A stretch of DNA of 64,000 bases from Escherichia coli. Its GTDB lineage: Bacteria; Pseudomonadota; Gammaproteobacteria; Enterobacterales; Enterobacteriaceae. The translations under genes were made by a program, and so were the position numbers. The notes under the pieces were generated by a model. That model saw only the letters and a list, made by a program, of their open reading frames with translations, did not search any database and was not told where the DNA came from. The DNA lies in assembly GCF_003334765.1 (NCBI RefSeq), contig NZ_QOWT01000010.1. One strand, 5' to 3'. Shown piece after piece: positions 34,730 to 35,178 of the stretch. Each line of letters begins with the position of its first letter. Position 1 is the stretch's first letter.

Positions 34730-35178
34730 AATTATAATAAATATTATTGTTGAGTGTTATATTATTATTCCTGTGTGATACATTGAGCAAAGACGCGTTC
34801 ATCTTCGTCAAAGATATTATTAAATGCTGGTTTTGAAAAAAGTTCATCGGATAAGATATAGTCACGAAATAAGTATCTGCTAATATTTTATGATTTCTTT
34901 TTCAGAACGTCGAACGGGATTTTCTTATTTAAGATATCAGAATCTTATGATTCGGGTAAAATTCTAAATAAATCAACATGTCATTAAAATCATCATAGCC
35001 ATTAGCTATTTCGGCTAAAATAGAGACTACATGTCTTCGGTCCATCTCACTTAAGGAGTGTAGTTCCGTTGTAAGTTTTTCCATAGCTTGCACTGCTAAA
35101 TTTCGAACAAGGAATTTTCTGCTGGTAATCTCTAAAAAGATGGCATGGTTTACAATGATTTTTGTTTCCTTTTGATTA

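What the first reader, a model, noticed from the sequence alone, without database searches (positions are those of the whole stretch)
34929..35084. Unannotated 52-codon ORF downstream of yrhA, possibly an immunity-gene remnant
On the minus strand an ATG at 35084 opens a 52-codon frame (MEKLTTELHSLSEMDRRHVVSILAEIANGYDDFNDMLIYLEFYPNHKILIS) that is below the ORF-track length cutoff. The same frame stays open upstream into the last codons of yrhA. It could be a fragment of a second immunity gene, which often accumulate behind polymorphic toxin genes, or a chance ORF.
Basis: seen in the sequence. Interest (0 to 1): 0.3.

Follow-up and report, generated by a model that had tools for sequence, protein, structure and literature searches.

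The report
yrhD: a dead orphan immunity gene
The small ORF is the already-catalogued E. coli gene yrhD, and it is not a working gene but the tail of a decaying, start-less copy of an ~84-residue immunity gene that in other bacteria sits right behind a nuclease toxin.

Summary
The ORF is real (ATG 35084, stop 34929-34931, minus strand) and its frame is open 40 codons upstream into the end of yrhA. It is not unannotated: RefSeq and UniProt list it as yrhD (P58037), function unknown.

The homologous unit is longer than the annotation. The stop-to-stop frame 35204-34932 matches a family of ~84-aa proteins at E=3e-18, using an HMM built without Escherichia sequences. The family has no Pfam or NCBIfam model. 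In six independent neighbourhoods its members overlap the 3' end of CdiA or orphan CdiA-CT genes, which all carry one ~125-aa toxin domain whose model resembles Tox-REase-5 nucleases. Salmonella and Citrobacter keep intact copies in the same yhhX-ggt island.

In E. coli the start codon is ACA, because yrhA's last codons overlap it. The annotated ATG is an internal Met in helix 2 of a predicted four-helix bundle. The remnant evolves neutrally (dN/dS 1.1-1.6), and at least 810 of 3809 carrier genomes have premature stops.

This is an ordinary relic, useful mainly for re-annotating yrhD. A second dead immunity-type gene fills the rest of the yrhD-yrhB gap.

The parts
34929..35084 (-). Annotated ORF yrhD (51 codons plus stop). 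It covers the 3' two-thirds of the remnant, and its ATG corresponds to the conserved internal Met of the family ('AMEqL', helix 2).
   Evidence: for coordinates and RefSeq annotation. for the alignment. for helix boundaries.
34929..35192 (-). Full family-colinear remnant of the ~84-codon immunity-type gene (87 codons plus stop). It has no start codon and evolves neutrally.
   Evidence: phmmer hits P0028-30. End-to-end alignment A2. An HMM free of Escherichia sequences gives E=3.2e-18, with HMM positions 5-69 of 84 aligned to window 35180-34986. tblastn with the Citrobacter and Salmonella proteins gives E about 1e-12. blastn to those genes gives 68% identity. dN/dS is 1.13-1.56.
35190..35192 (-). 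ACA codon at the position of the family's TTG/ATG start codon. The start is lost in all five E. coli alleles examined, and the position lies inside the last codons of yrhA.
   Evidence: Ungapped DNA alignment with Salmonella, Citrobacter, Lelliottia, Photorhabdus and Serratia. Protein alignment A2.
34768..34926 (-). Second pseudogene, in a different frame. It is the N-terminal 54 codons of a homolog of the Citrobacter 86-aa gene that follows an Hcp-toxin gene, with a lost start, an in-frame stop at codon 13 and a truncated 3' end.
   Evidence: tblastn gives 49% identity over 53 aa, E=5e-12 against the whole 64-kb window.
35179..35673 (-). yrhA (164 aa, intact here). It is the YrhA-family putative immunity gene of YhhZ, and its 3' end overlaps and replaces the 5' end of the remnant.
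   Evidence: NCBIfam NF038335, E=1.7e-35..
35670..36848 (-). yhhZ, an Hcp-fused HNH toxin, the resident polymorphic toxin of the island.
   Evidence: NCBIfam TIGR03344. Pfam T6SS_HCP plus a weak HNH hit. PMC5714182 classifies YhhZ as a His-Me finger nuclease.
34445..34729 (-). yrhB, an intact Imm35 immunity gene with no cognate toxin in this window.
   Evidence: Pfam Imm35, 4.6e-23. In Salmonella L027 its ortholog is preceded by a Gln_amidase toxin fragment.
35237..35266 (-). Sigma-70-like promoter match (TAGAGA-18-TATATT) inside the 3' part of yrhA, upstream of the remnant.
   Evidence: Consensus scan. The same hexamers are listed upstream of yrhD in a genomic SELEX study of RpoD holoenzyme, PMC3946193. 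That is in vitro binding only.

Best explanation
The ORF is yrhD, and yrhD is the 3' part of a pseudogene. The ancestral gene (window about 35192-34929, minus strand) encoded an ~84-residue four-helix-bundle protein from an unnamed family. In other Proteobacteria that family is encoded directly behind, and overlapping, CdiA or orphan CdiA-CT genes that carry a Tox-REase-5-like (PD-(D/E)xK nuclease fold) toxin domain. The family therefore looks like the cognate immunity protein, which would bind and block that toxin in the producing cell. An orphan copy lies in the yhhX-ggt island of Salmonella, Citrobacter and E. coli. In E. coli the yhhZ-CT/yrhA module now abuts it. The last codons of yrhA overlap the old start codon, which reads ACA, so the full-length protein can no longer be made by normal initiation. 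Since then the sequence has drifted neutrally and has picked up stops in several lineages. The K-12-type allele happens to keep an open frame, and gene callers take the conserved internal Met as a start, which yields the 51-aa 'YrhD'. Any such product would lack helix 1 and half of helix 2, so it should not fold or protect. Shown here: homology, synteny, loss of the start codon, neutral evolution, broken alleles, and the toxin-immunity gene neighbourhood. Inferred: the immunity function of the family, the nuclease activity of the toxin, and the lack of function of the 51-aa product.
Against: No experiment shows that any member of the family is an immunity protein; the function rests on gene neighbourhood alone. 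About 73% of carrier genomes (2786 of 3809 are at least 99% identical over the spacer) keep the K-12-type open frame, and an earlier study found 68 identical copies (PMC3575317). A recently acquired function of that allele therefore cannot be excluded from sequence alone. An RpoD-holoenzyme binding site lies upstream, so the region may be transcribed. The within-species dN/dS rests on only 7-19 substitutions. The toxin model comes from a shallow alignment of 5 sequences.
Confidence: 0.85

Rival explanations
1. yrhD encodes a genuine, functional 51-residue small protein that starts at the annotated ATG, perhaps a new function evolved from the leftover of an immunity gene.
For: The ORF is annotated by RefSeq and UniProt. 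The K-12-type allele is widespread and nearly invariant. A promoter-like RpoD site lies upstream.
Against: The frame is broken in at least 810 of 3809 carrier genomes, including Nissle 1917 and the type strain, and two alleles have lost the ATG. All substitutions inside the ORF are nonsynonymous and evenly spread over codon positions, and dN/dS is about 1.1-1.6. No Shine-Dalgarno-like sequence precedes the ATG, though yrhB shows none either, so this is weak evidence. The product would be a helix-bundle fragment lacking helix 1 and half of helix 2. 1617 of 5426 genomes lack the segment.
Confidence: 0.07
2. In K-12-type alleles the nearly full-length protein is still made from a non-canonical start (for example ATC/ATT at 35159-35154, 7 nt after an AAGGA at 35171-35167). 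It would act as an orphan immunity protein against Tox-REase-5-like toxins delivered by other Enterobacterales.
For: The 91-codon frame is fully open in the common allele. An AAGGA motif lies 7 nt upstream of the ATC-ATT codons (sequence). Intact orphan copies are retained in Salmonella and Citrobacter, which suggests orphan copies can be useful.
Against: ATC and ATT are very weak initiators (my own knowledge, not tested here). Other alleles carry stops. Evolution is neutral over the whole 87 codons. Nearly invariant family residues are lost, and the HMM score is about half that of intact members, 64 against 99-126 bits.
Confidence: 0.05
3. The ORF is a chance open frame in AT-rich intergenic DNA with no coding ancestry.
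For: It is short, lies in 32% G+C DNA and lacks a clear ribosome-binding site.
Against: Profile match at E=3e-18 to a family built without Escherichia sequences. Colinear end-to-end alignment. Syntenic intact orthologs and 68% DNA identity to them. Stop-codon depletion in this frame.
Confidence: 0.01

Closest known systems
Orphan cdiA-CT/cdiI and rhs-CT/rhsI modules: displaced toxin-immunity cassettes that pile up downstream of CDI, Rhs and other polymorphic toxin loci (Poole et al. 2011 and Zhang et al. 2012, cited from my own knowledge; Koskiniemi et al. 2014 appears in the reference list seen)
   Same: A small immunity-type gene sits in an array behind a polymorphic toxin gene with its cognate toxin gone. 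Intact relatives lie in true CdiA orphan arrays (L012, L015, L018). Salmonella and Citrobacter retain a stub of the toxin 3' end next to the immunity gene.
   Different: The E. coli copy is not a silent but intact orphan. It has lost its start codon, drifts neutrally and is broken in many strains. The resident toxin of the island is Hcp-fused (T6SS), whereas the cognate toxin domain seen elsewhere is CdiA-fused (T5SS).
TseT-TsiT (PA3907-PA3908) Tox-REase-5 T6SS effector-immunity pair of Pseudomonas aeruginosa (PDB 7dym, 9oz0)
   Different: There is no sequence-level match of the toxin to Pfam Tox-REase-5 or to any PDB chain. The immunity model did not retrieve TsiT or any other immunity protein, so the immunity families appear unrelated. 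Delivery here is by CdiA, not T6SS.
YrhA and YrhB, the neighbouring immunity-type genes of the same island
   Same: They share the locus, the strand and the presumed role as immunity genes behind yhhZ. yrhB is likewise an orphan, since its Salmonella ortholog follows a Gln_amidase toxin fragment.
   Different: There is no sequence similarity: BLASTP of the 91-aa frame against YrhA gives E=19, and YrhB is Imm35. Both are intact with dN/dS of 0.11-0.65, below the remnant's 1.13-1.56.

Membership tests
Unnamed ~84-aa 'YrhD-like' four-helix family (no Pfam or NCBIfam model) | Significant profile match over most of the length | tested here: met
   An HMM from 115 non-Escherichia members gives E=3.2e-18 (63.8 bits), HMM positions 5-69 of 84. 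The A2 alignment is end to end.
Unnamed ~84-aa 'YrhD-like' four-helix family (no Pfam or NCBIfam model) | Invariant and nearly invariant residues (F19 L20 E21 E38 L44; I13 A17 I18 F22 D31 Y66 L77 G82) | tested here: inconclusive
   F-L-E, E38, L44 and Y66 are kept. F22 is I in the K-12-type allele but F in B2-type alleles. D31, L77 and G82 are lost. This fits a decayed member.
Unnamed ~84-aa 'YrhD-like' four-helix family (no Pfam or NCBIfam model) | Intact ORF of 79-93 codons with a start codon | tested here: not met
   The start position reads ACA in 5 of 5 alleles. There is no ATG, GTG or TTG before 35093. Many strains carry stops. It is a pseudogene of the family, not a functional member.
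Polymorphic-toxin / CDI immunity proteins (CdiI-type) | Gene immediately downstream of, and usually overlapping, the toxin C-terminal domain, and co-varying with it | tested here: met
   Met for the intact family: six independent loci show a 4-14 nt overlap with one shared toxin domain. Not met for the E. coli copy, where yrhA lies upstream and the window holds no trace of the toxin.
Polymorphic-toxin / CDI immunity proteins (CdiI-type) | Binds and neutralises the cognate toxin | not testable with these tools
   This needs co-expression rescue, competition assays or binding measurements.
MafI family immunity protein (the NCBI name on one member, P0118) | Match to an NCBIfam or PDB MafI sequence | tested here: not met
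   hmmscan against NCBIfam gives nothing relevant for P0118, eight other members or the E. coli frame. The PDB profile search finds no MafI chain. Nearly all other listed members are named 'hypothetical protein' or carry no name.
Pfam DUF1463 (PF07316) | Pfam HMM match | tested here: inconclusive
   Marginal partial hit, i-E 9e-4 to 3e-3, to model positions 90-123 of 137 on residues 5-38 of the frame. None of the 120 listed family members has a precomputed Pfam hit. Treated as probably spurious.
YrhA family (NF038335), as a possible duplicate C-terminal fragment | Sequence similarity to YrhA | tested here: not met
   BLASTP gives E=19. NCBIfam gives no hit for the 91-aa frame.
Bona fide E. coli small protein | Reading frame conserved and under purifying selection across strains | tested here: not met
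   dN/dS is 1.13-1.56. Inside the ORF there are 0 synonymous and 4-10 nonsynonymous changes. At least 810 genomes carry premature stops.
Bona fide E. coli small protein | Evidence of translation | not tested
   No ribosome-profiling or proteomic data were available. The 17 papers that mention yrhD give no expression evidence in those I read.

The most novel reading that the evidence does not exclude
The common K-12-type allele, whose 91-codon frame is still open, may not be dead. It could make either the 51-aa peptide or a near-full-length protein from a non-canonical start. That product would still protect E. coli against Tox-REase-5-like CdiA-CT toxins from Serratia, Photorhabdus or Lelliottia-type neighbours, or would have taken on a new role. 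In that case an annotated 'unknown' K-12 gene would become a working orphan immunity gene, and an unnamed immunity family would gain its first tractable member.
Probability: 0.06. Interest if true: 0.5.

Novelty: new member of a known kind. Interest (0 to 1): 0.25.

Why it matters
The practical value is curation. yrhD (b4612, P58037) has stood for two decades as an 'uncharacterised protein' in the best-annotated bacterial genome. The evidence here says it should be re-annotated as a pseudogene fragment whose real boundaries are about 35192-34929. It also says the whole yrhA-yrhB gap is made of two dead immunity-type genes. As a by-product, the work defines an unnamed ~84-residue four-helix family with at least 291 members and no Pfam or NCBIfam model. 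It also defines that family's partner, a ~125-residue Tox-REase-5-like CdiA-CT domain with no sequence model, as a candidate toxin-immunity pair that could be tested directly. Finally, the locus illustrates how polymorphic-toxin islands turn over: the same yhhX-ggt island holds different live and dead cassettes in E. coli, Citrobacter and Salmonella.

Tried and rejected
1. My first idea was that YrhD is a C-terminal duplicate of YrhA or a SUKH-like protein, based on 'FSDFSSFLNEIM' against 'YDDFNDMLIYLEF'. BLASTP found nothing, so I dropped it.

2. I considered the whole yrhA-yrhB spacer as one decayed ~170-codon ORF in a single frame, because of stop depletion. I rejected this. Homology shows two separate remnants in different frames. 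The downstream 60-codon ORF at 34683-34865 in the yrhD frame has no homolog.

3. The Pfam DUF1463 hit is marginal and is not shared by family members. I treat it as compositional.

4. The 'MafI family' label on P0118 is not reproduced by NCBIfam or the PDB. The MafB paper mentions no REase class.

5. P0013, an apparent 76%-identical intact allele, differs only by C-to-T-type changes and its loci do not translate to the query. It is almost certainly an artefact of bisulfite-converted reads.

6. P0027, a 3000-aa protein at E=2e-9, is a tandem-repeat protein. Each repeat matches weakly (iE about 0.05), so the summed score is an artefact.

8. The PDB sequence search, NCBIfam and PADLOC gave nothing for the immunity family. 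Pfam, NCBIfam and the PDB sequence search gave nothing for the toxin domain.

9. tblastn of the toxin domain and of the Salmonella Gln_amidase fragment against the window found no remnant.

Full report
**Observation.** On the minus strand an ATG at 35084 opens 51 sense codons (MEKLTTELHS...HKILIS) that end at a TAA at 34931-34929. The same frame stays open for 40 more codons upstream, back to a TAA at 35207-35205. It therefore overlaps the last eight codons of yrhA, whose stop is at 35181-35179. That stretch contains no ATG, GTG or TTG until the GTG at 35093.

**Is it unannotated?** No. The window is the E. coli ugpQ-yhhA-ggt-yrhB-...-yrhA-yhhZ-yhhY-yhhX region. It is 100% identical to K-12 strains except that K-12 carries IS1 inside yrhA and the window does not. 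RefSeq annotates exactly these coordinates as yrhD, 'protein YrhD', WP_001307436.1. UniProt has it as YRHD_ECOLI, and a 2012 pan-genome paper cites it as Swiss-Prot P58037 / EcoGene EG14370, function unknown.

**First look at conservation.** A word-indexed search with the 51-aa peptide found only short Escherichia proteins. The 449-nt yrhA-yrhB spacer is present in 3809 of 5426 complete E. coli genomes: 2786 at 99% identity or more, 543 at 95-99% and 480 at 90-95%. In four divergent alleles (L002-L005) PGAP marks yrhD as a pseudogene while yrhA and yrhB stay intact.
- Three of these alleles have TAA at codon 24, one has TAG at codon 39, and two have ATA in place of the ATG.
- Inside the ORF, 0 synonymous and 4-10 nonsynonymous differences are spread evenly over the three codon positions.
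- The ORF diverges at 2.6-6.4%, which is within the range of the flanking non-coding DNA.
- Exact 61-nt probes find the codon-24 stop in at least 454 genomes, including Nissle 1917 and ATCC 11775, and the codon-39 stop in at least 356.

**The real unit is longer.** I took the whole 91-codon stop-to-stop frame (35204-34932) and ran phmmer against 1.84 billion representative proteins. Besides Escherichia variants it returned three proteins of about 80 aa at 37-39% identity, covering residues 10-77 of the frame. That span includes the supposedly non-coding upstream part as well as YrhD. A profile search then found 291 proteins at E of 0.01 or better. Nearly all are 79-93 aa, none has a Pfam domain, and those that carry a name are nearly all called 'hypothetical protein'. 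They come from Citrobacter, Salmonella, Serratia, Rahnella, Cedecea, Pectobacterium, Pantoea, Photorhabdus, Lelliottia, some Betaproteobacteria, Sphingomonadales and a Rickettsia endosymbiont.

To avoid circularity I built an HMM from 115 non-Escherichia members and searched all stop-to-stop segments of the 64-kb window.
- The only hit is 35204-34932 (-), at E=3.2e-18, with HMM positions 5-69 of 84 aligned to residues 9-73.
- A 36-sequence alignment shows the E. coli frame aligned end to end, 85 against 84 residues, with nearly coincident stops.
- The invariant F-L-E is kept, but the nearly invariant D31, L77 and G82 are lost.
- The annotated Met of YrhD is the family's conserved internal Met ('AMEqL').

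**What the family is.** Family members sit directly after a toxin gene and overlap it by 4-14 nt in six independent neighbourhoods:
- a metagenome contig (L007);
- a Lelliottia CdiA orphan array (L012-14);
- a full-length Photorhabdus CdiA (L016);
- a Serratia PT-VENN orphan (L018);
- Quatrionicoccus (L020, two copies);
- another contig (L021).

**Orthology and how the E. coli copy died.** Citrobacter braakii carries an intact 84-aa member in the same yhhX-yhhY...ggt-yhhA-ugpQ island. In Salmonella enterica the intact gene sits in the same island just upstream of a Gln_amidase toxin fragment and the yrhB (Imm35) ortholog, which mirrors the E. coli order yrhD - spacer - yrhB. E. coli 35162-35050, which spans the annotated ATG, is 68% identical at the DNA level to those genes. 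yrhB is 70-71% identical to its orthologs, so the divergence is similar.

Upstream of the Salmonella gene the DNA still reads '...KMFDELGIKNIEVKIVKE', the 3' tail of the cognate toxin, and Citrobacter has a more decayed version of the same tail. In an ungapped alignment the TTG/ATG start of the intact genes lines up with ACA (35192-35190) in all five E. coli alleles. Upstream of that point E. coli carries the last codons of yrhA instead of the toxin tail. The simplest reading is that the yhhZ-CT/yrhA cassette replaced the old toxin and clipped the first codons of its immunity gene.

Over the 87 family-colinear codons, dN/dS between E. coli alleles is 1.13-1.56. This is compatible with neutrality (P=0.65) and rejects omega=0.2 (P=0.002). 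For comparison, yrhA gives 0.22-0.57, yrhB gives 0.11-0.65, and intact family genes between genera give 0.07-0.30.

**What the 51-aa product would be.** The annotated start falls in the middle of helix 2, so the peptide would lack helix 1 (which holds the invariant FLEF core) and half of helix 2. No Shine-Dalgarno-like motif precedes the ATG, though the clearly real yrhB lacks one too, so that point is weak. A sigma-70-like site (TAGAGA-18-TATATT, 35266-35237) lies upstream, and a genomic SELEX study reports it as an RpoD-holoenzyme site upstream of yrhD. Transcription is therefore plausible. I found no evidence of translation.

**The rest of the gap.** The 199 nt between yrhD and yrhB are a second pseudogene in another frame. 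Window 34926-34768 (-) matches residues 2-54 of the Citrobacter 86-aa gene that directly follows its Hcp-toxin gene (49% identity, E=5e-12 against the whole window). It has an in-frame stop at codon 13 and is truncated before yrhB. The island behind yhhZ therefore reads: yrhA (live), a dead CdiI-like gene (yrhD), a dead 86-aa-family gene, then yrhB (live, orphan Imm35).

**Verdict.** The interpretation 'immunity-gene remnant' is supported, while 'unannotated' is wrong and the true boundaries extend 108 nt upstream. This is a known kind of object, a decaying orphan immunity gene in a polymorphic-toxin island, so the interest is modest. The useful outputs are a re-annotation of yrhD and the definition of an unnamed immunity family with its Tox-REase-5-like partner toxin. 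The residual chance that the common open allele still makes something functional is about 0.1 (rivals 1 and 2 combined).

Noticed in passing
window 34768-34926 (-): A second pseudogene fills the yrhD-yrhB spacer in a different frame. It matches residues 2-54 of the Citrobacter 86-aa gene that follows an Hcp-toxin gene (49% identity, E=5e-12). It has lost its start, carries an in-frame stop at codon 13 and is truncated at the 3' end.
   Followed up: partly
window 35179-35673 (-), versus L001: yrhA is intact here (164 aa), whereas K-12 strains carry IS1 (IS1E) inside it. Otherwise the 2.5-kb region is 100% identical to K-12. I did not pursue which strain the window comes from.
   Followed up: no
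window 34445-34729 (-); L027 7366-7853: yrhB (Imm35) also looks like an orphan immunity gene. In Salmonella its ortholog is immediately preceded by a 69-aa Gln_amidase (PF15644) toxin fragment, and no such toxin or remnant was found in the E. coli window.
   Followed up: partly
L007, L012, L016, L018, L020, L021 (toxin C-termini): The ~125-aa CdiA-CT domain paired with the family has no Pfam, NCBIfam or PDB sequence match. It does match the C-terminus of the PADLOC candidate defence protein PDC-M17A (E=6.7e-10), and its model resembles Tox-REase-5.
   Followed up: partly
L022-L024 (protein P0013): An apparent 76%-identical 'allele' of YrhD differs from K-12 only by C-to-T-type changes, and the surrounding contigs are shredded into tiny ORFs. 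These are most likely assemblies of bisulfite-converted reads in the Logan collection, not a natural variant.
   Followed up: partly
L002 3441-4619; L006 4001-4800: The island decays in other ways too. In strain SF-468 the Hcp-HNH toxin gene itself has an internal stop. In strain PKF8 an IS1 sits where yhhZ, yrhA and yrhD would be, leaving only 71 nt of the spacer next to yrhB.
   Followed up: no
L009 8317-8583, 10779-11030; L011 10063-10332; L027 9371-9640: A further family of 83-89-aa proteins (MxTxTELNxLKxxA...NWxWxxLDR...) recurs in the Citrobacter and Salmonella versions of the island. One copy overlaps the end of an Hcp-toxin gene, so it is probably another immunity family. No trace of it is in the E. 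coli window.
   Followed up: no
window 34683-34865 (-): A 60-codon ORF in the same frame as yrhD overlaps the start of yrhB by 46 nt. It has no homolog or family match and is probably a chance ORF in AT-rich DNA.
   Followed up: partly
proteins P0025, P0026: Some assemblies contain YrhA-YrhD fusion ORFs (246 aa and 105 aa) created by frameshifts or deletions at the yrhA/yrhD junction. This shows the junction is mutable.
   Followed up: no
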